A DNA stretch of 63,675 bases, the filler included, from Rhabdomonas costata (taxonomy: Eukaryota): the NCBI GenBank assembly GCA_019059605.1. It is 43 parts of 43 records of this genome, joined end to end, with 100 filler letters (N's around TTAATTAATTAA, not from the genome) between each part and the next. Parts side by side here need not be neighbours in the genome. Positions count along the whole stretch, not along the records: positions 48,958 to 50,340 come from JAHMHO010017576.1; positions 50,441 to 51,823 come from JAHMHO010017577.1; positions 51,924 to 53,306 come from JAHMHO010017578.1; 40 more parts are not named here. One strand, 5' to 3'. The notes under the pieces were generated by a model that was not told the DNA's origin, did no database searches, and saw nothing but the letters and a program-made list of their open reading frames with translations. Shown in pieces: positions 12,288 through 53,406 of this stretch. Within the stretch, counting starts at the first letter, position 1. Every line of letters starts with the position of its first letter. Position numbers and translations under genes: made by a program.

Positions 12288-12956
12288 TCAATAAGAGCTC
12301 TGGTCCAGCTCTCTTCCAAGCTGGACCCTTTCCAGCTCCCTGTGGTGCACTCCGTAGATCCTTTGACAGGACTCCAGAACATCCACCAACTTCTCCTGGG
12401 TGGTGGTGGGCTTCTCCGTCTTCTTTTTTGCTCGGGGCCGGGGCACCGGATGGATCCTCCGCTGGCTGTGCTCGTACAAAAAGAACCCCGCGCCGTGGAC
12501 GCAATGGAAGCCAATCCAGTCCCTCCAGAGGTTTTCCCGGGACAGAGTGAAGAGGTTACCCACCACAATCATGGCCTGGCGGGCCCGCGTCAGGGCAACG
12601 TTAACCCTCCTCCAATGGCTCAGGAAGCCGACATCCCCGTTGGGATTGGCCCGGACGCAGTCCAGGATCATCACCTCCCGCTCACCTCCCTGGAAGCTGT
12701 CCACCGTACTCACCGTAACAAGGCTAGAGGCGTCCTCCAGTCTGGCAAAGACGGAGTTGGAAGAGCCAGAGCCCAGGCGAGCGCTCATCTCGGCAAGAGT
12801 GGAAGAAAGGGCGGTGCAGATGGGCTCGATCTGAGCGGAGTAGAAGCTGAGCACCCCGATGCTTGTCGGGGCAACACCGGAGCGCAGGAAGTCCGCAACG
12901 ACCGACGCGACAGCCTCAGCCTCACTGTAGTTGGCGTACGAGGAGCTGATCTTCTC
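12288..12956 (-). CDS. UPF1/DNA2/NAM7-like superfamily-1 helicase, C-terminal (AAA_12) exon
   Basis: SYANYSEAEAV..IGVLSFYSAQ..VSTVDSFQGGEREVMILDCVRAN..VGFLSHWRRVNVALTRARQAMIVVGN, following a cag acceptor at 12957. Confidence 0.95.
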   Translation of the reverse strand, partial: EKISSSYANYSEAEAVASVVADFLRSGVAPTSIGVLSFYSAQIEPICTALSSTLAEMSARLGSGSSNSVFARLEDASSLVTVSTVDSFQGGEREVMILDCVRANPNGDVGFLSHWRRVNVALTRARQAMIVVGNLFTLSRENLWRDWIGFHCVHGAGFFLYEHSQRRIHPVPRPRAKKKTEKPTTTQEKLVDVLESCQRIYGVHHRELERVQLGRELDQSSY

Positions 12957-13480
12957 CTGCGCAGTGATTGGCGGGGGGCAGGAGAATATGATCACCAATA
13001 AATGATCAATATTATTTATAAATACGAAAAAATACTATTTATAAATAAGAAAGATTAAATTAAAGTATCCATTCTTATGATTTGACAAAACGGATACAGT
13101 TGTGTGCGACAAGGCCTGGGGGCTGCTTGATTGACGGGTGTGGTGGGCGGGCTGATCTGCCCTGGTCCATTGAAAATCTCCAGTGACTACTGCGGACACG
13201 CAACGACCTCACATGAAATCCCGTAGTACTCACAAAGCTGTAGTTGTTTAAACANNNNNNNNNNNNNNNNNNNNNNNNNNNNNNNNNNNNNNNNNNNNTT
13301 AATTAATTAANNNNNNNNNNNNNNNNNNNNNNNNNNNNNNNNNNNNNNNNNNNNGGGGTTTTTTTTCCGGAATGTTTTGAGGCCATGTGCATTGTGGGCT
13401 GCAGTTTTTCATCACCTTTCTGGGAAACTATACTTGTTGAGCTGTTTCATTGAAGATCTGGTCTTTTGCATCTGTCGCAG

Positions 13481-14432: not shown

Positions 14433-15389
14433 GTGTTTTGATTTGGCTACTGCGATGCAAAGGGTTCATAATGACGGTTGGGTTCTGAGCTGGGAAACTT
14501 TTTCACAATAGTTTTCTTTGTGATTGGTTGTGAACAGTTGGACGTTGGCTTTTTGTTGTTGTCACAGCATGTCTGCGTGTCTCCCTTATCGCTGCGTGTG
14601 TATGCTGGCATCGAATGATTCTTCTCTCTGGCTCCAGTGCTGCACTTTTGCTTTGCACTGCACCAGAGAGAAGAATCATTCGATGCCAGCATACACACGC
14701 AGCGATAAGGGAGACACGCAGACATGCTGTGACACCAANNNNNNNNNNNNNNNNNNNNNNNNNNNNNNNNNNNNNNNNNNNNTTAATTAATTAANNNNNN
14801 NNNNNNNNNNNNNNNNNNNNNNNNNNNNNNNNNNNNNNTGTTTTTGGGACCTTCGTAGTACAGCTTGCACTTGCGCTCGTTGATCGTGTTCGTAGGTCGT
14901 GTTTTTCCTGAACTTGGAGTATTTGGATGGAGGGTGCATCTTGGGTCGTTTGAGGCTTAGCTGGATTCTTGGCTACGGGGTTCAGAATTCTGTTGGTTAT
15001 TTGATGATTTTTCGCTTTGAATCTTGGCTGGTGATTGTGTTTGGTATTTATGTGGGGTGAGCTATGTCGTTTATTTCTAACAGCTTTTGTAGCTATTGGT
15101 GATCCGGGACTGATTTCAGGGCTGGGTTTGTAGCGGGTTCATGTTGCCGATCGTTTTCTCCTGTGTTTGGTGGCTTGACGTTGGTAGGAATTTTTGCTAC
15201 GGATTGTGTTTGAATGGTGTGTCTGAGCTGGATGTTGTGAGATTTTGCTACGGGATAAGTATTTTGTGATATGTTGTTGCAGTTGCTTTGTTGTTGGTCG
15301 TGTTATGTATAAAGTGGCTTGGTATGGTGATGTGATTCTTCGAAGTGTAATCGCGTTTTGTAGCTGGAGTTTGTTTTTTAAAATTAAGT

Positions 15390-15581
15390 CATGTATCCTG
15401 GTGCCAGTGTGCTTGAGTGGTGATGATTGGTCTTGGAGTTTTAGCTAGTATTGACCGTGTGGTAGTTCTGGGGTTGATTCTGTTGTTGCAGTGCCGTGGT
15501 GTCATTGTGGTAGGTTGAGATGGGATTTTTGCATGACTTCAGTGTTGTTTTTGTGTATGGTTTCAGAGAGTGTATCAACGG
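15390..15581 (+). CDS. Mitochondrial nad5-like fragment (TGA=Trp)
   Basis: VIVVG-W(TGA 15516)-DGIFAWLQCCFCVWFQR is in exact register with Nad5 LFxGWEGVG.....xWYxR. Alignment by eye only. Confidence 0.35.
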
Positions 15582-17861
15582 TAGTTGCATGTATATTATT
15601 ATTATTATTATTATTATTGCATGTAAGTTGTTTACGTTGGTTTGGGTGTTCGTGTGGAGGCGCAGTGGTGTATGATGGGTGCTGATGCTTTGCGTTATTT
15701 GGGTGGTGATATTGGTGGTTGGTTTTGTGTTAGAGTCAGTAGAATTCAAGCCTAGATGTGCAAAAGTGGACGCTACAGTATACACATCTGCATTTCACCA
15801 CGTCATTGGAATTATAGAGTGTCATGGCCAACCGGTAGGAAATCACCAACTACGGTAATCTAGGTAATACAGGTACAAAAGCATGGCCCCATACAAAGCC
15901 TTCTTGAACGCCACGCTGTCTCCACCAACATAAAAAAATCTTCCAAGCCTCCCGTGATTCCAAGGGGTACTGTTGCCATTTGGTTTTGGAGTTAGACTAT
16001 GCAAGTGAGCTCGTAACAAAACAATAAATGCCACTTTAAATGATCCTCATTTTTCTTTCTAAAATGAAAAATAAAACCTTTTCCTCATTCACTAAAACAC
16101 TGCGCTCCATAGGAAGTTCTCCACTGCACAGTTTTTAAGATCTAAAAATGGTAAATATAGGCAAGACCACGAAAAATTGTACATGATTTGCGCTTAATCT
16201 ACATCAATATTTGTNNNNNNNNNNNNNNNNNNNNNNNNNNNNNNNNNNNNNNNNNNNNTTAATTAATTAANNNNNNNNNNNNNNNNNNNNNNNNNNNNNN
16301 NNNNNNNNNNNNNNTTGGTGTAGATTATAGCAAGTTGGTTATACACATAGAAGGTTAGAGTTAGTTGTCCTCAGGTGAATTGAGTGTGCTGCCTGTGCTT
16401 TATTCTGTGCTTTTCTAGTTTTTCCGTTTCATGAGCAATGAACTTGTCTATTAAATAATAAAGTGTGAGGATTTTTTACACACATATAGCCAGTGGTTTG
16501 ATACGTCCACATCTCATATAAATATCACACTCCAGATGATCTGTGAGAGAGTGAGTGTCTTCAAATGTTGAGCGTTTTGGCGTTAGATGTGATAATATAG
16601 AGTGTTCTTTGGTTGTGAAAAAGCTCTGATAAACGAGCTTTATTTTTCATATTTGAGAGGCTTGATTGTGATGAATTACTTCCACGTGTTTCTCAGTCCA
16701 GAGTTTATAATGTTGCAAACACGTCCTGATGTTGTTTCTAAATCACAATTAGAACCTTTTTGAATACGAAATATCAGAAAAATAATTTGCAAAGAAGTTC
16801 TGCAAATTCTCAATGTTGATATTTCAAATGTTGTTGATATATACAAGCTGTATGGTGTAGCCATTATTTCAGATATATAGAATAATGATATCAATAATTT
16901 GGTGTTCATTCTAGAGGATTGGATGACAGAGATGTTTGAAGCTCTACAGGAGTTAAATTAATGGAGATATTTTGCCCTCGTAAATCAAGAGCTAAATTTT
17001 CAGAGTGCAGTTAAGCAAATCCTGGAGTACCATGTCTTGTTGGAGTATGTTTTGAAAGTTGTAGAATAGCTAGATGTGTAGGTTTACCACTGTGACACGA
17101 TATAAACAAATAGAGTCATTTGATGATTATGATTAAGGCCAGAGAGTTTCTTTTAAATCTTCCAGACATAAGACTATACAAATCACCTCTTTATACACAA
17201 GTAGCTAATGCCATGGAATATATTTAAAGGTAGACATAGTAATGCAATCAGCGACAAAGTCAACAGAAATGTACGGGCACTGCACTGAAATGAGTGGCAA
17301 TTGCCACACCATCCACATCCACAGCAAGTTTCCTCAAAGCAGAACCCACCACTGAACCCAATTGAAGAAGCTATCAGTGCTGAGTACACGGTGTGAGCAA
17401 TAAAAAGCACCAGCCAAAGCCAACCAAGCGATCAGAGCATGGCCAGGTGAAAGATGGAATGTCACCGCTGTATAGACAGATAGCCATACAAATAGATAGA
17501 GCAGCCAGAAAACTACTCGACCGCATTGCACATCCACAGTGTATGTTACATTGTTCAGGAGGATAAGGTTTTATTCTAAATTTCCACCACGTTTTCACAG
17601 TTCATGAAGATTTCACGTTTTCATCATATTACCGTGGTATACATGAAAACGTGAAATCTTCATGAACTGTGAAAACGTGGTGGAAATTTAGAACAAAANN
17701 NNNNNNNNNNNNNNNNNNNNNNNNNNNNNNNNNNNNNNNNNNTTAATTAATTAANNNNNNNNNNNNNNNNNNNNNNNNNNNNNNNNNNNNNNNNNNNNGG
17801 TGTTTTGTCACTTTTCTTCGAACAGCTTGCTGCTTTTCTTCGTCCGGCTTATTTGCGATAA

Positions 17862-18318: not shown

Positions 18319-19182
18319 TTACAGGAGGCTGCGCCACCAAAAACGCGTGAGAGCGGAGGTAGGGTGCTTCAGGACGGGATTGAGAGAATGGGGTAGCGCC
18401 AGTACAGGTGGGGAGGAGGGTGGGAGAGAAGGGAAACGAGAGAAAGCATCTGCGGGATTACATGCGGAGGGAGTGAGGGCGAGCTGCATTTGTAGGCCGT
18501 GAGCAAGACACAGGCGAGAGATCCGCCGAAGGAGACGCACGCGCGCCCAGACACGACCGGAAACTCTCCCTGTGAGAACACTGTGGTAAGCTGCCTCGTT
18601 GTCCACGACAACACAAACGTGAGACAGGCCAGAGAGTGCAGCTTGGCGGAGACAACAGAAGACGCTGTAGAGCTCTGCGCTTTGTTGGGATTCCACCCAA
18701 GGGGGTGCCTGCACAGCCACAGCGTAGGAGAGGGGCCGCACACAGGCAGCGATGAAGCCTGATTGGCAGGGGGCAGCATCACAGAACATCACGGGCATGC
18801 ACACGGGAGGGGGGAGCACGCGACAGATTAGAGGTCCCACAGAGGAGAGGCATGCGATGAGAAGAGAGTGCCAAATACGGCGAGGAAGGAGAGCGGGAAA
18901 GCGTGGCTGGAGAAGGAGCTGATAACTGGAGGCGAGAAATGGCGCAGAAAGAGAACACGGGGCAAGGAGCCATTGCAGGAACCCGAGGAGGCGTTGCAAA
19001 CATCGGGCGGAGAGGCGATGACAACGAAGAAACCAGAGATGTTGAAGAGCCATAGCAATGCGAGAGGGAGTGTTGGAGAGAGTGCCATGGTGGATGCGCT
19101 TGCCAAGCCAAGTGATGGACTGCGTTGGAACAAACTCGGATTTATGGTTCAACTGAAGACCTGCAGATGTAATGAGATGCGC
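18319..19182 (-). mobile_element. Tyrosine-recombinase retrotransposon (DIRS/TATE/VIPER-like): RT C-terminus plus RNase H
   Basis: Intronless open frame: GLQLNHKSEFVPTQSITWLG..LQRLLGFLQW (RT thumb), then MFCDAA..QQSAELYS..VVVDNEAA..PSACNPADAFSR, i.e. RNase H with the DIRS-type NPADxxSR ending. Confidence 0.88.
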
Positions 19183-36390: not shown

Positions 36391-37703
36391 GGCACAGCCC
36401 CAAAGTTTGTAAAGTACAAATAACTTAAGAAGAATGGAGGGAAAGCAAATAGATGCAAACCTCATCTAAATCAAAGTAGGGGATCGGTCACACCGAAAGC
36501 CAATCTTTGCACCGCTAACATTGTGGAACACAGTAAAGACGGCTCGGTCGTAAAGGGTAAGCCGACACAGTAAAGAATACCCAACCAGAGCGCATCGCAT
36601 ACAAAAGTTTCTGGATTAATCCCCATACTGTGCATGAATTCAAAATTCATTGAAACTCTATTCTAAAAATATTGCATCCTTTTATTCGAACCTTAACGGA
36701 AATGCTTGCAGCGTGACTGCAATCGCAACTCTTGTGAATCATGTCCTTGAATCCCGTGACCAAAAACTTTTCGTCCAATGATATCTCATCGACTAAGCAG
36801 GTCTGTGGATAAGCTTAAAAGTGTGCCCACAGCGGTATTCGCCCTGCAAAATTGAAGCCGTGATACCTGAGACACAATACATATCAATATGCAACAACAC
36901 ACAGATTGATGATACCAGAGAAAAAAGAGAAGAAATTCAGCTGACAGTTGACGAAAAATCGACTCACCCCCACAACCCCNNNNNNNNNNNNNNNNNNNNN
37001 NNNNNNNNNNNNNNNNNNNNNNNTTAATTAATTAANNNNNNNNNNNNNNNNNNNNNNNNNNNNNNNNNNNNNNNNNNNNGTTGTGGTGGAAAAAGGACTG
37101 TCTCAGGTGCACTTGCATACTTGTGTATCGATCTCGCAGGCCATTGCCGCTGCCCCGGCGGTTCATCGCGGCCCTCTTCTGCTCCTTCCGAAGCACTGCT
37201 GAGGTCGCGGCAATGGCCTGCGAGATCGATACACAAGTATGCAAGTGCACCTGAGACAGTCCTTTTTCCACCTTGACCGAAACACCACAGACAACAGAAT
37301 AGGAAAAATGGATGGACCTGCAAACGGAGATGGAATGATGACCACTGTGAGCAAATACCCATGTAACACTATTCCCTGTTCTCTGTCCTTGCACAGCCCT
37401 TTATTTTCATTCCCTTCTTTTTGTGGCGCGCAGCTCTCCGCATCTGCACTCTCCCCGGGCTCAAATCATGGCACCGTTTCGGAGCCGTTGGCACTGCTGC
37501 CCAATTGTCAAGTGTCGTCTCTCAGAAGGTCGCATTGGGCATTGAGCTATCTGGGGGTTCGTGAGAAAAAACAGACTGGAAAATTTCCCTTGCCCTTCCT
37601 CTTCCCTCCGCCTCCGTTCGTTCGTAGCCCAAGAAACAGACACACACTCCAGAATACGCGTAAGAAACACAGGAAGACACAAACGCAACATCACCACTAC
37701 CAA

Positions 37704-37934
37704 CCATGCACTGAACCCCTCCATCCAGAATGCCTCCAACAATGCCACCAACACGAGAGCCAGGAATACGCATCATGCCATCACTACCAACGCTAACACC
37801 ACCATCCACCATAGCACCATGAGAGTCAAGCACACCAGGAGCACCAACAACAGGAAGGCCAAGCACCACTGCATCAACACCACCAGGAACCACAAGACCA
37901 CCAGGAATGCCATCAACGCCAACACCCTCCGACG
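37704..37934 (-). CDS. Mitochondrial nad3-like fragment (TGA=Trp)
   Basis: Reading TGA 37775-37773 as Trp fuses two ORF-track ORFs into one hydrophobic frame ending FLALVLVALLEAFWMEGFSAW (compare the Nad3 C-terminal WxxGxxxW). The DLE motif is not conserved (LMQ). Confidence 0.4.
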
Positions 37935-38561
37935 ACAAGCACAACAACAGCATACCAGCAGAACCAAACACACTACAACACAAGAAAAGCCTTGGACACC
38001 AACAGCAGAAGGATAAACGACACCACGCATAGGATAAGAGTGAGGTGGGTAAGAAGAGACAGAGACAGAACCAGACACAGAGCCAGAGCCAGAGCCAGAA
38101 CCTGAGACGGACACAGCAGCAAGCAACAGCGACACCAACACCACCAGCAACGTCAACACCAACAGCCCCTCCATTCCACAGCACACCTCCAGCACAGACA
38201 CCGCCCCGACCACAGCCAACACAACCAACCATGCCAACAACCCCAACGTGAGACAGAACAACGTGAGACAGAACAACGTGAGACCGACCAACACTACCAA
38301 CACTACAGCCGACACAACCAACGCTACAGCACCAGCACCCAACACCACACCTCCAACAACAACAACAACAACAACCCCTACTCCTACACCTACAGCATAC
38401 AGCATACCCTACATAAGAATACAAGAAGAACATACGCGCGAGAACCGAAGCCCACAAAAACNNNNNNNNNNNNNNNNNNNNNNNNNNNNNNNNNNNNNNN
38501 NNNNNTTAATTAATTAANNNNNNNNNNNNNNNNNNNNNNNNNNNNNNNNNNNNNNNNNNNN

Positions 38562-38650
38562 GCACTGACAACCACCAACATGACATCCAACCACACCACA
38601 AGGCCCTCAACCACCACCAGCAACCACCACCACATGCAACCACTAACAGA
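38562..38650 (-). CDS. Possible mitochondrial nad4L-like fragment
   Basis: WWLLVVVEGLVVWLDVMLVVVS is in register with Nad4L IELMLLAVNLNFLVFS. Weak, low-complexity match. Confidence 0.22.
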
Positions 38651-38794
38651 GCGTAAGAGACAGGAACACACATAGCGCCACAACCAACATCCCAACCACC
38701 ACCACCACAGAAGGCCTTGAAACAGAGACGCTAACACCAACATACCCTACACTAAGACAGCGTAACACACACGATACCACTACAGAAGGAACAG

Positions 38795-38920
38795 AGAGAG
38801 CATGACATGAAGATAGGGAGCATGATTGCAGAAACAGTGAGCATGGCATAAGGAACAGGGAGCATGGTTAGAAACAGAGAGAGCATGGTTACGGAGACAG
38901 GGAGCATGGTTACAGAGACA
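38795..38920. repeat. ~21-bp tandem repeat with GAGCATGGTT core
   Basis: Six units with cores at about 38798, 38818, 38839, 38860, 38881 and 38902. Same core as the AACCATGCTC array at 51496-51599. Confidence 0.85.
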
Positions 38921-39457
38921 GCAACACCACCACAGAAGGCATGAACCATGAGACCATCACCACATCCACAGCAACACACACAGAGTCAATAGCACCAACA
39001 CCACCCATGATACCGGACACAGAAGCACCAACAACATCCACACCACCCTTCGACCCCAACATCAGCCCCAACAACACCACACGTCAACCTATACGCGAAA
39101 CCACCCTACCACCCAAGAAGCACGAACAGCATGAGACAGGAAGACACACAACTACGCTAGAAGCAGAGACGCGAACACCACCAGGCCCCGTAACAGCACC
39201 AACATCCACAGGCACAACAACAACAGTGAGCATGGTTAGAGACAGCCACAGCCACAGCACCAACACCTTACGCAACACCTTACCCTACACCTACCCCAAC
39301 AGCATAACCCTACACCAAAACCCTACACCTACAGCATAACCTACACCTATAGCATAACACACACCCTACATAATATATAATAGAAGACACGCACGCGTAA
39401 GGAAACCCAAGGCACACACAACGAACAGAACCAGAGAGCATGGTTGACACACGGCAT

Positions 39458-39618
39458 GGTTGACTGACACAGAGAGCATGGTTGCTACAGACCTCTGAAA
39501 CGGACACAACGACACACACACCCACACCCCCACGCACACCCACAGATACAGAGAGCAAGGTTGACTGACACAGAGAGCATGGTTGCTACAGACCTCTGAA
39601 ACGGACACAACGACACAC
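39458..39618. repeat. ~60-bp direct duplication containing GAGCATGGTT
   Basis: ggttgactgacacagagagcatggttgctacagacctctgaaacggacacaacgacacac occurs at 39458 and 39559. Confidence 0.9.
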
Positions 39619-39689
39619 TTCGACACCAACACACCCTACGACACACTGCGAATGCCGAATACCAACCCCATTGACGACAGGCACCGCTA

Positions 39690-39945
39690 CCTGAAGTCGA
39701 ACCCCGAATGCCGAACCCAGAGACGCGAACTCAGAAGACAGATCCTCAAGCCCAGTGTAAAACCCACGAATACCGGATGCATAACCCCAAGAGACACAAA
39801 GACCGAAGGCAAGAACGCAAAGACACGAACCCCAAAGACCCGAGAGACTAAAAGACAGAAGCACAAACCCAGCACAAGCACTGACACCACCAAAGCACAC
39901 CAAGCCCATACAACCACCAGCCCAACCACAACAACCACCCACCCC
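39690..39945 (-). CDS. Mitochondrial atp6-like fragment
   Basis: CMGLVCFGGVSACAGFVLLSFSLSGLWG...LEDLSSEFASLGSAFGVRL resembles Atp6 NLxGLxPY..SHF..LS..W.G...ExxSxxFRxLSLGxRL. Alignment by eye. Confidence 0.35.
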
Positions 39946-45791: not shown

Positions 45792-45837
<46 letters not shown>

Positions 45838-46298
45838 CTTTTTTTGCAAAGAAAACCTTACAAAAAGAAGTGCAACGTTCGATTCAACAACNNNNNNNNN
45901 NNNNNNNNNNNNNNNNNNNNNNNNNNNNNNNNNNNTTAATTAATTAANNNNNNNNNNNNNNNNNNNNNNNNNNNNNNNNNNNNNNNNNNNNTATTTTGCG
46001 GGCGCTGGGTTGGCTGGGTGTGGTGATCTGTGATCGAGGCACGCTATTCTACTGCTTTTGCAAAGTGCTTTTCCATTGGGCTGGTCTGGTCACCCCTTTG
46101 CCATGGCTGTTTCCTCATGCCCCCTTTTAGAATGCTTTGATGATAATGAGCTTTTCCAGATGTTGCGACCTCTTCAAGCTCTTCAGTGTCCTGCAATGAT
46201 GTGTGACCCGCAGCTCAAGAAGCTCCCACCCCACCGTAATTGCTATGAAGTGATGTTGGTGATGTCCGCTTGTCTCTCACAATCGCTGTTTCTCTCAG

Positions 46299-50300: not shown

Positions 50301-50529
50301 GCCCTCCTAACTCTCAGCTTTAGCTGATGCACACACAACCNNNNNNNNNNNNNNNNNNNNNNNNNNNNNNNNNNNNNNNNNNNNTTAATTAATTAANNNN
50401 NNNNNNNNNNNNNNNNNNNNNNNNNNNNNNNNNNNNNNNNGTTGGTGTGTGCCTAGTGTCGTAGGTGTTGAGGTGGTGCTGAGATTTGTGGTGACGTGTG
50501 TGGTGGATGTCGTCTTGGTGTGGACATAG

Positions 50530-50740
50530 TTGGATCGGGCGGGTACTGCGGTGTGTTTGGTGTCGCTGGTGCTCTTTGAATGTGTGTTCTTCTTTGGTGC
50601 GGTGTGGTGCTTGGGGCTGGTGGTGGATTTGCAGGGGTTTGGTGTCGGTGTTGTGGGTGCTTGGGGTTCGGTGTGTGATTCGGGGCTTGGTTCGGTGTTG
50701 GGTTCTGTAGCAGTGGTGGATGGGCCTTATTCTCTTGGGT
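50530..50740 (+). CDS. Mitochondrial cox3-like fragment
   Basis: GTAVCLVSLVLFECVFFFGAVW is in register with Cox3 GLRYGMILFIxSEVxFFxxFFW (conserved Glu at 50578). Boundaries approximate. Confidence 0.45.
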
Positions 50741-50810
50741 TGGGTTCCCGGTCCCACCGGCCGTACAGCAGTGGGTATCCCTAGGTTCTGGTCTTCAATG
50801 TGTTAGTCTC

Positions 50811-51020
50811 CGGTTGTGGGTGGCTTCCTTTGAGGTTGGTGTTACTTCCTGTGCTGGGTTCCTTGCTGGTGTTGCTCGTGGTGTCGTTGGTGCTGCAGTG
50901 GGTTTATCGTGGTGTGGCTTCCGGTACTGTGGTGGGTCGTGCGCGCGGGTCTCTGGATATGGGGTTGGCATTGGGTTCATGGGTGGGTGTTGGACAAGGA
51001 GGGTGTGGGTGCGTAGATTA
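50811..51020 (+). CDS. Mitochondrial nad7-like fragment
   Basis: RLW..VGVTSCAGFLAGVARGVVGAAVGLSW-x17-VGIGFMGGCWTR has the same spacing as Nad7 RIW..IGV..L..GV..GIxW-x17-VPVGxxGDCYDR. Several conserved charged residues are missing. Confidence 0.35.
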
Positions 51021-51042
51021 GGTGGGTTGGATATGATGTAGT

Positions 51043-51225
51043 GGATGCCCTTGGCTAATTGGTATTGTGGTGGTGTGACTTCGGGGTGTGTGGTTAGGGT
51101 TCGGCGGTAAACAGAGCTGGTGCATGGCAGTTTGGTGGTGGTTTGGCATTGTTAGGTCCGTGTGATTAAGTGCAGTGGTTTCCGGTGTGATCCTCACTGT
51201 TTTCTCTTGTGTTAAGGTGTGGGAC
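51043..51225 (+). CDS. Mitochondrial nad5/nad2-like fragment (two TGA=Trp)
   Basis: With TGA 51076 and 51163 read as W: LRGVWLGFGGKQ...VVSGVILTVFSCVKV, compared with Nad5 AGxPFLxGFYSKD...LTxxYSxR. Confidence 0.33.
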
Positions 51226-51239
51226 ACGCTTCCGAAACA

Positions 51240-51440
51240 TTTGGGCTGTGGTTCGTGTGTCAGAATGTTGGTGGTGCGATGGGTTCTGCTGAGTACAGTG
51301 TGTGTTCCTTGGTGTGCTTGACTTGGGGTTTGTTGCTCGTTGCCTTCGGTGCTTGGTCTCCAATCTTGCTTCTCTATGTGTACATGGGCGGTGTCATGTG
51401 GTGTTGGTATCTTGTTGTGGTGCTCGTGAAGGTTCCATGC
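51240..51440 (+). CDS. Mitochondrial nad4-like fragment
   Basis: YSVCSLVCLTWGLLLV...WCWYLVVVLVKVP resembles Nad4 YTLxGSLxxL...FxVKVP. The diagnostic continuation HxWLPxAH is absent from the contig. Confidence 0.5.
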
Positions 51441-51495
51441 TGTACGGCTTTGCACTCCAAAGTTGGCATCCAGGCATCCAGGTCTCGTGTGTGTC

Positions 51496-51599
51496 AACCA
51501 TGCTCTCGATCAACCATGCTCTCAGGTTCTGTGTGTCGGTCAACCATGCTCTCGATCAACCATGCTCACTGTTAACCATGCTCACTCTCAACCATGCTC
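51496..51599. repeat. AACCATGCTC array (6 copies, mostly 16-bp period)
   Basis: Copies at 51496, 51512, 51542, 51558, 51574 and 51590. Confidence 0.92.
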
Positions 51600-51680
51600 T
51601 CGCGCGTACGTGTGTTCTTCTTATTACATGTATGTATGGGTATAGGTATAGGGTATAGGTGTATGCTGTAGCTGTAGGAG
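51600..51680 (+). other. Conserved non-coding block shared by three G+T-skewed contigs (also 38383-38442 and 39322-39398, minus strand)
   Basis: Consensus CGCGT..TGT(T)CTTCT..TAT..TATGTA(T)GGGT..TATGCTGTAG(G/C)TGTAGG. Confidence 0.8.
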
Positions 51681-53406
51681 TTGGAGTTTGTGTTGGTGTC
51701 ACTGTTGGTGTTGGTGTATGTCTCAAACATGCTCACTGTTGTTGTTGTGTCTGTTGGCTGTAGCTGTGTCTGTTTCTATGGTAATGTGTTGATGCGTAGG
51801 GTGTGTTGGGCTTTAGGGTGTCANNNNNNNNNNNNNNNNNNNNNNNNNNNNNNNNNNNNNNNNNNNNTTAATTAATTAANNNNNNNNNNNNNNNNNNNNN
51901 NNNNNNNNNNNNNNNNNNNNNNNGTGTTGTGGGGATCGGGAGAAATAGGTGGTGGTGAAGGAGCGAAGGAAGGAATTCATAAAAGAAACAGCAGAGATCG
52001 ACAAGACATCCACGTCTAAAACGGGTGGGAACGCCCTTTGCCCTCCATCCTCCCTGTGAAAATCAACAACAATTGTGACCTCTTTGCCCTGATTCGATGT
52101 GGTATTTCTTTGCCACAGTGGCCATCCTCCCTACCTCTCCCAAAGACTTCGGTTCCACTCCCACGCCTCCTGATACTTTGTATTTTCTCCTCTCAGCCTT
52201 TCCACCCACGTGTAATTTATGGCATTGTTTTTCCGGAACAATTGGCACCCCGTTTGTGCGCGCTTGCCCTTATTTATTGCATTGTTTCATCTAATACAAT
52301 AGGAAATGTCTGATGATTATTTGTTTCAAATTCTGATAGTTCTAATGTGTCCAAAAATGGCTCAGAGTTAGAGCTTTCACTCAATCCTCCTGTTGCATTA
52401 GAACTAGAGAAAAATACTACTGTAGCTGTGTAGAATGTAATATTGTGTATTGTTTCGCTAATAGATTTGTTTACACTGTAGGATCAACAACATTTACACA
52501 TTATTTTTTACAAGATCGATAATTCAAGCCATTTAACACGAAATAAACAGATTTACACAAGATGACGTGTCTTTTAGAGCCAGATTTAAGTTCATCTCAT
52601 TGTTTTGTTCATTTCATGAGAGCCCGATAATGTTCTTTTGAGGATAAAAATTTGTTAGTGCCAGGAATCCCTGACCACACTACTCAGCCACTACTCAGGA
52701 GAGTGCTTTTCTCCCCGTCATCAAGTCCTTGTGAAGTGGACCGTAGGGGCCCATCTCCTTCCCGCGAGTATCTGAATGGAAGACGGGGTTGAATTTGTTC
52801 TGCTCCCTGAAGAAGCTGGTGAGCCTGGACTGGCCATCGACCAGTGCAAAACGGACTGCCGCTGTGCCAGGAACTGGAGGGAGTGCTCGACCCCCAAGAC
52901 CTGTGCCTTTTTTTTTACGTCCCTCGGCGGCACTCCTGGGTGGTGAACCCAATGCTGCGCGGAACCATTACTCTCACGGACCGCTGGACCACGGAGATCA
53001 CGCCGTTTCAGCCCCCCGCCCTGACTTGGGAGCGCATCAACGGCACAGGAGTGCGGATGGCCTCTGTGGTGAGCAGCAGGGTTTTACTTTACCACGCCCA
53101 CAGGGCTGCAGACAAGGCATGGCGTCACGCTAGAGCTGCAGGCGGACTCCGTGTGGGCAGACTCTGATTTGGGTCAGGAAGTTCCTCCAGGATTTGGTGC
53201 TTCCTCCCCGTGGGCTTGACGCTGGCCTGGAGCTGCCTCAACAGTAGCCAGTCGTGCGCGAAAGAGCCAAAGAGCCGGGCTCAGCTTCTCCTGCATGCCT
53301 CACAAANNNNNNNNNNNNNNNNNNNNNNNNNNNNNNNNNNNNNNNNNNNNTTAATTAATTAANNNNNNNNNNNNNNNNNNNNNNNNNNNNNNNNNNNNNN
53401 NNNNNN

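What the first reader, a model, noticed from the sequence alone, without database searches (positions are those of the whole stretch)
50441..51823. Candidate 'genes-in-pieces' mitochondrial chromosome: four different gene fragments packed end to end
Seen: the contig is extremely G+T-skewed and intronless. On one strand it carries adjacent ~200-nt frames followed by a repeat array and a conserved block. By eye the frames resemble internal pieces of cox3 (50530-50740), nad7 (50811-51020), nad5/2 (51043-51225, needing TGA=Trp) and nad4 (51240-51440, ending at VKVP just before the HxWLPxAH motif). Established: diplonemid mitochondria encode genes as separately transcribed modules joined by trans-splicing and use TGA=Trp, whereas Euglena gracilis mtDNA has intact genes plus scattered fragments. 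Inference: this is a multi-module array of a fragmented mitochondrial genome. If the host is a euglenid, this architecture and gene set would be unexpected. Caveat: G/V/C/W/L matches arise easily in G+T-rich DNA.
Basis: partly seen in the sequence, partly recalled or inferred. Interest (0 to 1): 0.88.

Follow-up and report, generated by a model that had tools for sequence, protein, structure and literature searches.

The report
Partial euglenid mitochondrial cox3, not gene pieces
This short G+T-rich contig carries most of one very divergent mitochondrial cox3 gene of a Rhabdomonas-like euglenid, followed by non-coding repeats, so it is not an array of four gene fragments.

Summary
The contig (50441-51823) is 72% G+T and ends in a 16-nt tandem array plus a block shared with two other skewed contigs.

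One gene is real. Window frame 1 (50443-~50913) encodes a conserved membrane protein. It matches Rhabdomonas costata RCo002596 (139 aa, 77% identity, E 6e-39) and nine metagenome ORFs. Scores are 87-197 bits against at most 42 in 200 shuffles.

A profile of this family has one solved-structure hit, chain C3 of the Euglena gracilis supercomplex 8IUF (E 0.31). I read that chain as Euglena's short COX3.

- They are separated by in-frame TAG codons, which R. costata mitochondria are reported to read as Tyr (PMC8219788).
- The "nad7" reading used the wrong frame.
- The "nad5/2" and "nad4" frames have no relatives and no codon phase.

There is no evidence of modules or trans-splicing. This copy differs from the expressed RCo002596 by three indels and several non-conservative changes, so it may be a degenerate duplicate.

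The parts
50441..51823 (+). Whole contig, 72% G+T on the + strand. Frame 1 (from 50443) has no TAA and is open over 460 codons if TGA=Trp and TAG=Tyr.
50443..50913 (+). cox3-like coding stretch, cut at its 5' end by the contig edge. 157 codons with 2 in-frame TAG, no TGA and no TAA.
   Evidence: tblastn of RCo002596 covers 50524-50940 (E 6e-39), and nine metagenome ORFs cover 50524-50778. Shuffle control. Codon phase chi2 21.8, p 0.0013. Alignment A4.
50530..50640 (+). Conserved block 1, a helix carrying the LFE.VFFFGAVW motif.
   Evidence: 32 invariant columns in A4, most of them here. T at codon position 2 is 0.53, p 0.014. Aligns collinearly but not significantly with residues 85-99 of 8iuf_C3.
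50641..50823 (+). Variable G/S/V-rich loop between the two blocks. It holds two compensating 1-nt frame differences from RCo002596, and a 50-nt imperfect tandem duplication that begins at 50606 in block 1 and runs to 50700.
   Evidence: Side match of RCo002596 residues 72-93 in frame 2 at 50732-50797. Homologues differ in length here. No codon phase, p 0.43. TRF.
50824..50913 (+). Conserved block 2 (LLPVLGSLLVLL.VSLVLQWV.R helix).
   Evidence: A4. Only solved-structure match: residues 132-159 of the 161-aa chain 8iuf_C3, E 0.31, conditional 1.7e-6. T at codon position 2 is 0.63, p 0.0044.
50527..50529 (+). In-frame TAG, at a column where all ten homologues have Ser.
50782..50784 (+). In-frame TAG within the variable loop.
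50934..50999 (+). Frame-3 stretch matching the C-terminal tail of RCo002596 (22 aa, 73% identity). This marks a third indel difference, and it lies beyond the point where the Euglena protein ends.
51022..51492 (+).
   Evidence: No Pfam or PDB match. The exhaustive phmmer of the nad4 frame found only a repeat artefact. No homologue match by tblastn. No codon phase over 50914-51492, p 0.27, and TGA/TAG occur at roughly composition frequency.
51494..51602 (+). Tandem array, about 7 copies of a 16-nt unit (consensus TCAACCATGCTCTCGA).
51605..51760 (+). Block shared with two other G+T-skewed contigs, at about 39440-39180 and 38461-38240 on the - strand. Mean column identity 63%.
38562..39945 (-). 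Sister contig A. Same skew, two CAACCATGCTC-type arrays and the shared block, but no cox3 homology.
37630..38461 (-). Sister contig B, G+T-rich part. It starts inside the shared block and then runs into ordinary-composition DNA at about 37630.

Best explanation
The contig is a fragment of mitochondrial-type DNA from a Rhabdomonas-like euglenid. Its G+T-rich strand carries one gene, a very divergent short cox3 of the kind known from Euglena gracilis.

Structure of the gene here:
- The contig edge cuts off the gene's 5' end. By collinearity with the Euglena protein, roughly 40 N-terminal residues are missing (inference).
- Two conserved transmembrane blocks (50530-50640 and 50824-50913) flank a variable Gly/Ser/Val-rich loop.
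- All of it lies in one frame, interrupted only by two TAG codons, which this lineage's mitochondrion is reported to read as Tyr.

The rest of the contig:
- About 500 nt of non-coding G+T-rich sequence.
- A 16-nt tandem array, then a block that recurs on other skewed contigs.
- I infer these are the recombination-prone repeats that break such genomes into short fragments, as described for Euglena mtDNA.

The apparent 'pieces' have two causes. TAG was read as a stop, and low A content makes every frame open for about 50-70 codons by chance.

This copy is not the template of the expressed R. costata sequence RCo002596. I lean about 60:40 that it is a divergent, possibly degenerate, second copy rather than the working gene.
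For: Shown:
- Family homology. 5 proteins at E<=0.1 among 478 candidates. tblastn gives E 6e-39 for RCo002596 and 1e-14 to 1e-19 for nine metagenome ORFs.
- Shuffle control. The real contig scores 87-197 bits, against a maximum of 31-42 in 200 dinucleotide shuffles.
- RCo002596 is EP00906_Rhabdomonas_costata_P001577.
- The family profile has a single solved-structure hit out of 177,635 sequences, 8iuf_C3 (161 aa). Block 2 aligns to its residues 132-159 and block 1 lies collinear at 85-99.
- 8IUF and 8IUJ are the Euglena gracilis I+III2+IV and III2+IV2 supercomplexes, and Eg-COX3 lacks three transmembrane helices (PMC10884005, passages).
- That sequence occurs in 3 chains over the two entries. 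I infer one complex-IV copy in 8IUF and two in 8IUJ, which has no complex I.
- Euglena cox3 was first annotated as nad6 (PMC4700960, passage).
- Codon phase is present in both blocks and absent from the loop and from downstream sequence.
- All six non-redundant family members compared are 53-67% G/V/L/W/C/F, so the G+T-rich coding is a trait of the family.

From the literature:
- R. costata mitochondria read UGA as Trp and UAG as Tyr. Contigs homologous to all seven Euglena mitochondrial genes were found in a very fragmented SPAdes assembly of whole-genome-amplified DNA: N50 1194, GC 51.6% (PMC8219788, section 8 and passages).
- This matches the window's contig sizes, its GC content and the terminal fold-backs on 7 of 43 contigs.
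Against: - The Cox3 identity rests on a weak match. E is 0.31 database-wide and only block 2 scores.
- Pfam COX3 detects none of the 11 family members.
- hhalign of the family against E. coli CyoC gives probability 0.4%.
- The AlphaFold model is poor (pLDDT 55), and the atlas gave nothing usable.
- Mitochondrial location is inferred only. I have no read depth, no neighbouring mitochondrial gene and no RNA. Sister contig B joins the same repeat block to ordinary-composition DNA.
- Neither TAG falls at a conserved Tyr. One replaces an invariant Ser.
- If TAG is read as Tyr, the frame has no stop anywhere in the contig.
- The copy has five private, non-conservative changes and three indel differences from RCo002596.
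Confidence: 0.72

Rival explanations
1. The conserved ORF is real, but it is some other small hydrophobic mitochondrial protein of euglenids rather than Cox3.
For: No Cox3 HMM recognises the family. The link to Eg-COX3 is E 0.31 over 28 residues of Leu/Val-rich helix. hhalign against CyoC is negative.
Against: The only solved-structure hit of two profile versions is the one protein the cox3 hypothesis predicts. The two blocks are collinear with it. The final motif sits at about residue 152-157 both in the window translation and in the 161-aa Euglena chain.
Confidence: 0.12
2. The contig is a nuclear insertion of mitochondrial DNA (a NUMT), that is, a dead copy of cox3 with its flanking repeats.
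For: There are two in-frame TAGs, one at an invariant Ser. The copy has five private non-conservative substitutions and three indels relative to the expressed RCo002596. Sister contig B links the shared block to ordinary-composition DNA. A fourth skewed stretch, 14851-15750, also abuts normal DNA.
Against: The whole 1383 nt keeps the extreme skew. Codon phase survives in both blocks, and the two loop indels compensate so that block 2 stays in frame. TAG is a sense codon in the published code. Whole-genome-amplification chimeras are evident in this assembly (7 of 43 contigs with terminal fold-backs) and could have created the junctions.
Confidence: 0.12
3. One reading: a diplonemid-style chromosome carrying modules of several genes (cox3, nad7, nad5/2, nad4) that are transcribed separately and trans-spliced.
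For: The cox3 stretch is incomplete at the contig's 5' end. A shared block plus variable region loosely recalls the constant-region/cassette layout. Multi-module chromosomes do exist in diplonemids (PMC7049700, sections 16 and 17).
Against: - The first two 'modules' are one continuous frame of one gene.
- There were no Nad7, Nad4, Nad5 or Nad2 matches in 22 code-4 frames, in 10 frames under TGA=W/TAG=Y, in PDB searches of four frames, or in an exhaustive phmmer of the nad4 frame against 1.84 billion representatives.
- Smith-Waterman scores against E. coli NuoD, NuoM, NuoL, NuoN and CyoC were matched or beaten by 10-40% of 200 shuffles.
- Real Diplonema modules were found by HMMs at E<0.005 (PMC3035467, passage).
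- The shared block is only about 63-80% identical between contigs, against 97-98% for diplonemid constant regions.
- The R. costata authors saw no sign of editing or introns in four mitochondrial genes.
Confidence: 0.04
4. My own first reading: a nuclear, strand-skewed minisatellite-like repeat with no gene, where all peptide resemblances are chance.
For: There are many short tandem arrays. ORF lengths equal those of shuffles. Pfam and PDB searches were negative.
Against: Contradicted by the family homology, which is far above the shuffle scores, and by codon phase in the two blocks.
Confidence: 0.01

Closest known systems
Euglena gracilis COX3 (chain C3 of PDB 8IUF/8IUJ, deposited as 'Putative NADH dehydrogenase subunit 6', 161 aa)
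   Same: It is short and mitochondrially encoded. The final conserved helix ends in an LQ.V.R-type motif at nearly the same residue number. An earlier helix with a Glu followed by Phe-rich residues lies in the same order. Pfam's COX3 model does not detect the window's family either. Eg-COX3 lacks three helices of the canonical seven (PMC10884005).
   Different: The match covers only 28 residues at E 0.31. The window's family has a much longer, variable Gly/Ser/Val-rich loop between the two helices: about 75 residues against about 33 (inferred). Its composition is G/V/L/W/C/F-rich.
Rhabdomonas costata RCo002596 and the R. costata mitochondrial contigs (Soukal et al. 2021, PMC8219788)
   Same: The P0001 frame is 90% identical to RCo002596 over 85% of its length. 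Both have the same two blocks and the same G+T-rich coding. The published code (UGA=Trp, UAG=Tyr) removes the breaks in the frame. The assembly properties match the window.
   Different: Identity is 77% over 139 aa, with three frame-changing indels and non-conservative changes at otherwise invariant positions. The paper completed cox1, cox2, cob and part of nad4 but not cox3. Its list of cox3-homologous contigs is in Supplementary Table S7, which I could not read.
Euglena gracilis mtDNA architecture (Dobakova et al. 2015, PMC4700960, citing Spencer and Gray 2011)
   Same: Heterogeneous short fragments bearing repeats. Intact genes sit alongside scattered, probably non-functional gene fragments. 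The seven-gene set includes a highly divergent cox3.
   Different: I saw no description of a G+T skew in the passages read. The repeat units here (the CAACCATGCTC array and the shared block) have no published counterpart that I could find (one search returned 16 papers; all 10 listed used the string as an unrelated primer).
Diplonemid mitochondrial gene modules (Vlcek et al. 2011, PMC3035467; Kaur et al. 2020, PMC7049700)
   Same: Euglenozoan. There is a shared repeat-bearing region next to a unique region, and a strand skew.
   Different: This is a single gene in one frame, not several modules. There are no pieces of nad genes. The shared block is far less conserved than diplonemid constant regions. 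No RNA evidence was obtainable.

Membership tests
Cytochrome c oxidase subunit III (Cox3) | Significant match to the curated COX3 profile (Pfam PF00510) | tested here: not met
0 of 11 family members match at E<=10, including the window's translation. I infer the model would also struggle with the divergent Euglena protein, but I did not test that.
Cytochrome c oxidase subunit III (Cox3) | Sequence relation to a protein placed experimentally at the COX3 position of complex IV | tested here: inconclusive
   The only PDB hit of profiles A3 and A4 is 8iuf_C3 (E 0.34 and 0.31; conditional 2.9e-6 and 1.7e-6). Block 1 is collinear but does not score. The chain's identity as Eg-COX3 is inferred from the chain name, its 3 chains over 8IUF and 8IUJ, and papers PMC10884005 and PMC4700960.
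Cytochrome c oxidase subunit III (Cox3) | Multi-helix membrane protein with a conserved Glu-bearing helix (the canonical motif is recalled from memory, not taken from a call) | tested here: inconclusive
   The AlphaFold2 model has three long helices (3-27, 32-67, 128-161) but pLDDT is only 55. An invariant F-E-.-V-F-F segment sits in block 1. No fold search was run because the model is of low confidence.
Diplonemid-type fragmented mitochondrial genes (modules) | Short non-overlapping pieces of a gene, each bounded by non-coding flanks | tested here: not met
The frame is open to the contig's first base.
Diplonemid-type fragmented mitochondrial genes (modules) | Pieces of several different genes on one chromosome, recognisable by HMM | tested here: not met
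   No nad7, nad5, nad2 or nad4 signal appeared in Pfam, PDB, the exhaustive phmmer or the shuffle-controlled Smith-Waterman test.
Diplonemid-type fragmented mitochondrial genes (modules) | Separate transcription and trans-splicing of the pieces | not testable with these tools
Euglenid mitochondrial genome (Euglena/Rhabdomonas type) | The gene belongs to the seven-gene euglenid set and reads as one uninterrupted frame, as expected for a gene without introns or editing | tested here: met
   cox3 is one of the seven genes. The frame is continuous under the published code. Absence of editing itself could not be tested without RNA data.
Euglenid mitochondrial genome (Euglena/Rhabdomonas type) | Genetic code with UGA=Trp and (in R. 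costata) UAG=Tyr | tested here: inconclusive
   The conserved stretch has two in-frame TAGs (1.7 expected from composition) and no TGA. All 6 Trp codons are TGG. Neither TAG aligns with a conserved Tyr.
Euglenid mitochondrial genome (Euglena/Rhabdomonas type) | Physical location in the mitochondrion | not testable with these tools
   No read depth, long-range linkage or RNA data were available. The genome-contig scan failed three times.

The most novel reading that the evidence does not exclude
cox3 really is split in this euglenid. The N-terminal third would be encoded elsewhere, and the three frame differences and two TAGs between this genomic copy and the expressed RCo002596 would be resolved at the RNA level by joining or insertion/deletion editing. 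That would place diplonemid- or kinetoplastid-like RNA processing in a euglenid mitochondrion. My data do not exclude it, because the contig ends inside the gene and no RNA or whole-assembly data could be consulted. However, the scattered amino-acid differences fit no single editing type, and the published analysis of four other genes saw no editing.
Probability: 0.04. Interest if true: 0.8.

Novelty: new member of a known kind. Interest (0 to 1): 0.24.

Why it matters
The finding as posed, diplonemid-like genes-in-pieces in a euglenid, would have been striking, but it does not hold. What remains is modest but useful.

- It gives a concrete cox3-type sequence for a heterotrophic, Rhabdomonas-like euglenid. 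The published draft could not complete this gene.
- If the Cox3 identity holds, the short Cox3 seen in Euglena would also occur in this lineage and in several uncultured relatives.
- It shows that this clade codes its mitochondrial proteins on an extremely G+T-rich strand.
- It is a warning for annotation. Standard HMMs miss this family entirely, and reading TAG as a stop chops it into module-like frames.

Tried and rejected
This rested on Pfam, PDB (19-22), ORF-length shuffles, periodicity, tandem repeats and two junctions to normal DNA. One search overturned that reading for 50443-50940.
- A+C-strand coding of Thr/Pro/Asn-rich proteins: no Pfam families in 4 frames and no phase in the target. 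Dropped.
- Scan of metagenome contigs for the tandem CAACCATGCTC motif: 69 loci, none related beyond the motif.
- Host identification from a helicase exon (best hit 39% identity), a retroelement ORF, Rfam and tRNA scans: uninformative.
- Sister contig B's 277-codon phased frame: no homologues at E<=0.001 among 7408 candidates of 171-546 aa.
- Exhaustive phmmer of the nad4 frame: its one hit is an 11-fold repeat protein, an artefact.
- Rfam at E<=1 on the three skewed contigs: nothing.
- hhalign of the family against E. coli CyoC: probability 0.4%.
- AlphaFold2 model pLDDT 55, so no fold search was made.
- Atlas on P0073: nothing usable.
- The search for related loci: viral contigs returned 95 pattern matches but no relative. 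Genome contigs gave no answer three times.
- An idea that heavy transition-type editing masks the genes was considered but not tested, because no euglenozoan reference sequences were available.
Supplementary files of PMC8219788 (Table S7, Fig. S3) were not read and may already list this very kind of contig.
Full report
**What the window is.** The 63,675-base window is a string of 43 contigs of about 1383 nt, joined by N/TTAATTAATTAA spacers. The finding covers exactly one contig, 50441-51823. Its composition is A 0.12, C 0.16, G 0.36, T 0.36, so 72% G+T. Two other contigs show the mirror-image skew: 38562-39945 (27% G+T) and 37080-38461 (34% G+T). A fourth contig has a 900-nt G+T-rich stretch at 14851-15750.

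**The observation.**
- Their length carries no information. Under code 4 the longest + strand frame is 207 aa. The mean of 500 dinucleotide shuffles is 212 aa, and 46% of shuffles reach 207. The opposite strand is equally open. With A at 12%, TAA and TAG are expected only about every 48 codons.
- The repeat array is real. About 7 copies of a 16-nt unit lie at 51494-51602.
- The block after it (about 51605-51760) is shared with the two mirror-skewed contigs, in the same orientation relative to the skew. CAACCATGCTC with up to 1 mismatch occurs 19 times in the window against 1.5 expected, 16 of them in these three contigs.

**First round of tests, all negative.**
The same was true for 18 further code-4 frames of the three skewed contigs.
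- phmmer against all PDB chains at E<=10 gave only unrelated weak hits: 4, 1, 1 and 0.
- An exhaustive phmmer of the 'nad4' frame against 1.84 billion representatives found one protein. It is made of 11 near-identical repeats, so the hit is a summed artefact.
- I ran Smith-Waterman against E. coli NuoD, NuoM, NuoL, NuoN and CyoC, fetched from the annotated K-12 record. Between 10% and 40% of 200 composition-preserving shuffles matched or beat the real contig's best + strand score.
- The contig as a whole has no 3-base periodicity.
- At that point I read it as a skewed, minisatellite-rich repeat. Two of the four skewed stretches run directly into ordinary-composition DNA.

**The result that changed the reading.** This gave 5 proteins at E<=0.1 out of 478 candidates.
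- One is 90% identical over 85% of the query and is named RCo002596. The cluster look-up identifies it as EP00906_Rhabdomonas_costata_P001577.
- The other four, and five further cluster members, are unnamed metagenome ORFs of 144-307 aa (a sixth further member, 69 aa, was left out).
- An alignment of the ten with the window (A4) shows two strongly conserved hydrophobic blocks separated by a variable Gly/Ser/Val-rich loop.
- Both blocks lie in the same window frame: 50530-50640 and 50824-50913.
- Local tblastn places RCo002596 on 50524-50940 (139 aa, 77% identity, E 6e-39) and the others on 50524-50778 (E 1e-14 to 1e-19). No other contig of the window matches.
- Without any composition correction, the real contig scores 87-197 bits. 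The maximum in 200 dinucleotide shuffles is 31-42 bits.
- Codon phase is present in both blocks (T at position 2 is 0.53 and 0.63; p 0.014 and 0.0044). It is absent from the loop (p 0.43) and from the 193 codons downstream (p 0.27).

**Is it Cox3?**
- Pfam's COX3 model detects none of the 11 family members. So my earlier Pfam negatives say nothing about cox3. They remain meaningful for the far better conserved Nad7, Nad4 and Nad5.
- A profile of the family searched against 177,635 distinct PDB sequences has three hits at E<=10 in one version and a single hit in the other. The top hit both times is chain C3 of 8IUF/8IUJ, a 161-aa protein deposited as 'Putative NADH dehydrogenase subunit 6' (E 0.34 and 0.31; conditional 1.7e-6). 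The other two hits of the first version are unrelated (E about 7).
- Block 2 aligns to its residues 132-159. HMMER also prints block 1 collinear with residues 85-99, though that part does not score.
- 8IUF and 8IUJ are the Euglena gracilis I+III2+IV and III2+IV2 supercomplexes. The paper states that Eg-COX3 lacks three transmembrane helices (PMC10884005, passages).
- The sequence occurs in three chains over the two entries. I infer one in 8IUF and two in 8IUJ, as expected of a complex IV subunit.
- Dobakova et al. note that Euglena's cox3 was first annotated as nad6 (PMC4700960, passage).
- The final motif sits at residues 152-156 of the window translation and 153-157 of the Euglena chain.
- I take this as good but not conclusive evidence for Cox3, roughly 85%. 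The database-wide E-value is not significant, hhalign against E. coli CyoC is negative, and the AlphaFold2 model is too poor (pLDDT 55, three helices) to justify a fold search.

**Why it looked like pieces.** Soukal et al. 2021 report that R. costata mitochondrial ORFs translated with code 4 keep many UAG codons at positions where homologues have Tyr. They conclude that UGA is Trp and UAG is Tyr. They found contigs homologous to all seven Euglena mitochondrial genes, and saw no editing or introns in the four genes they could complete (PMC8219788, section 8 and Discussion passages).
- Under that code, window frame 1 is open across the whole contig: 460 codons and no TAA.
- So 'cox3' (50530-50740) and the region called 'nad7' (50811-51020) are two parts of one gene.
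- The 'nad7' frame is frame 3, the wrong frame over block 2. The exception is 50934-50999, where frame 3 matches the tail of RCo002596. That tail lies beyond the point where the Euglena protein ends.
- The frame is open to the contig's first base. MAFFT aligns residues 3-28 with the preceding hydrophobic segment of the homologues, with V20 and D22 nearly invariant. So the 5' limit is the assembly break, not a module boundary.
- By collinearity with Eg-COX3, about 40 N-terminal residues are missing (inference).

**The rest of the contig.** The stretch 51022-51492 holds the 'nad5/2' and 'nad4' frames.
- It has no relatives in Pfam, in PDB (which includes the Euglena ND4 and ND5 chains of 8IUF) or in the exhaustive phmmer.
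- No family homologue matches it and it has no codon phase.
- TGA occurs 5 times and TAG once in frame, roughly what composition predicts (3.1 each expected).
- I read it as non-coding. The array and shared block that follow are, by inference, the kind of repeats that make euglenid mtDNA a set of short recombining fragments (PMC4700960, passages).
- The block is only about 63-80% identical between contigs. This is unlike the 97-98% identity of diplonemid constant regions (PMC3035467).

**Live gene or dead copy?**
- Relative to the expressed RCo002596, the window copy has two compensating 1-nt frame differences in the loop and a third after block 2.
- It has five private changes at columns where the other non-redundant members agree: G27W, S29 to TAG, W41S, G47C and G106R. 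All are non-conservative. The others carry 2-4 private changes, mostly conservative.
- The assembly described in the paper matches the window: SPAdes, N50 1194, GC 51.6%, whole-genome amplification. In the window, 7 of 43 contigs end in fold-backs, all at contig ends.
- If the organism is the same, this contig is not the template of RCo002596 and is a second, divergent copy. If it is a related species, it may simply be the orthologue.
- I lean 60:40 towards a divergent, possibly degenerate copy.
- Whether it sits in mtDNA or is a nuclear insertion cannot be decided here.

**Comparison with what is known, and verdict.**
- Multi-module chromosomes are established in diplonemids (PMC7049700, sections 16 and 17), but none of their defining features is met here.
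- The contig fits the euglenid pattern: one of the seven genes, in a single open frame, next to repeats.
- It is a new member of a known kind. The R. costata paper lists cox3-homologous contigs only in a supplement I could not read, and it could not complete the gene.
- Its interest lies in three things: a short Cox3-type gene in a heterotrophic euglenid lineage and its uncultured relatives, the extreme G+T-rich coding of this family, and the annotation trap it creates. Overall interest is low to modest.

Noticed in passing
window 37630-38461 (- strand), sister contig B: The G+T-rich strand has strong triplet phase, and nearly all its tandem periods are multiples of 3. One frame has no stop in 277 codons under the standard code (0 of 500 shuffles reach this), and it continues into ordinary-composition DNA. 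No homologues at E<=0.001 and no Pfam family. It may be an unrecognised gene or a triplet-repeat tract.
   Followed up: partly
window contig ends: 5938-6112, 10188-10284, 10389-10448, 14556-14738, 17569-17698, 28016-28077, 37085-37272: 7 of 43 contigs carry an inverted repeat (fold-back) of 48-190 aligned nt, all 7 at a contig end. This is the pattern expected from whole-genome-amplification chimeras or assembler artefacts. The one at 17583-17684 hits several hairpin miRNA families on both strands, below their thresholds.
   Followed up: partly
window 39239-39943 (- strand), sister contig A: There is a weak Pfam ATP-synt_A match (E 0.0014, 18.9 bits against a cutoff of 33.9) under TGA=W, TAG=Y. 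It lies across the tandem-repeat array, so it is probably spurious. Euglena mtDNA is reported to encode no ATP synthase subunit.
   Followed up: no
window 14851-15750: A fourth skewed stretch, T-richer (73% G+T), with an (ATT)n microsatellite near 15596. It abuts A+T-rich ordinary DNA at about 15750. It has no similarity to the other three skewed contigs and no Pfam family.
   Followed up: partly
window 12288-13034 (- strand): An exon-like ORF encoding the C-terminal part of a UPF1/DNA2-type superfamily I helicase (hits carry PF13087). The best hit is only 39% identical, so the host's nuclear proteins are poorly represented in the collection at that length range.
   Followed up: partly
window 18322-19182 (- strand): A 287-aa ORF resembling eukaryotic retroelement proteins. 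The atlas feature score is 0.96 to unnamed eukaryotic clusters, with RT/RNase H families on a minority of members of lower-ranked clusters. Pfam itself finds nothing.
   Followed up: partly
proteins P0074, P0077, P0078 versus P0079 and the window (alignment A4): Three environmental ORFs end exactly after '...SLILQ', where the window and RCo002596 have Trp. This would happen if the next codon is TGA and the gene caller read it as a stop.
   Followed up: no
window 45795-45847: A run of about 50 T residues sits inside an otherwise ordinary contig.
   Followed up: no
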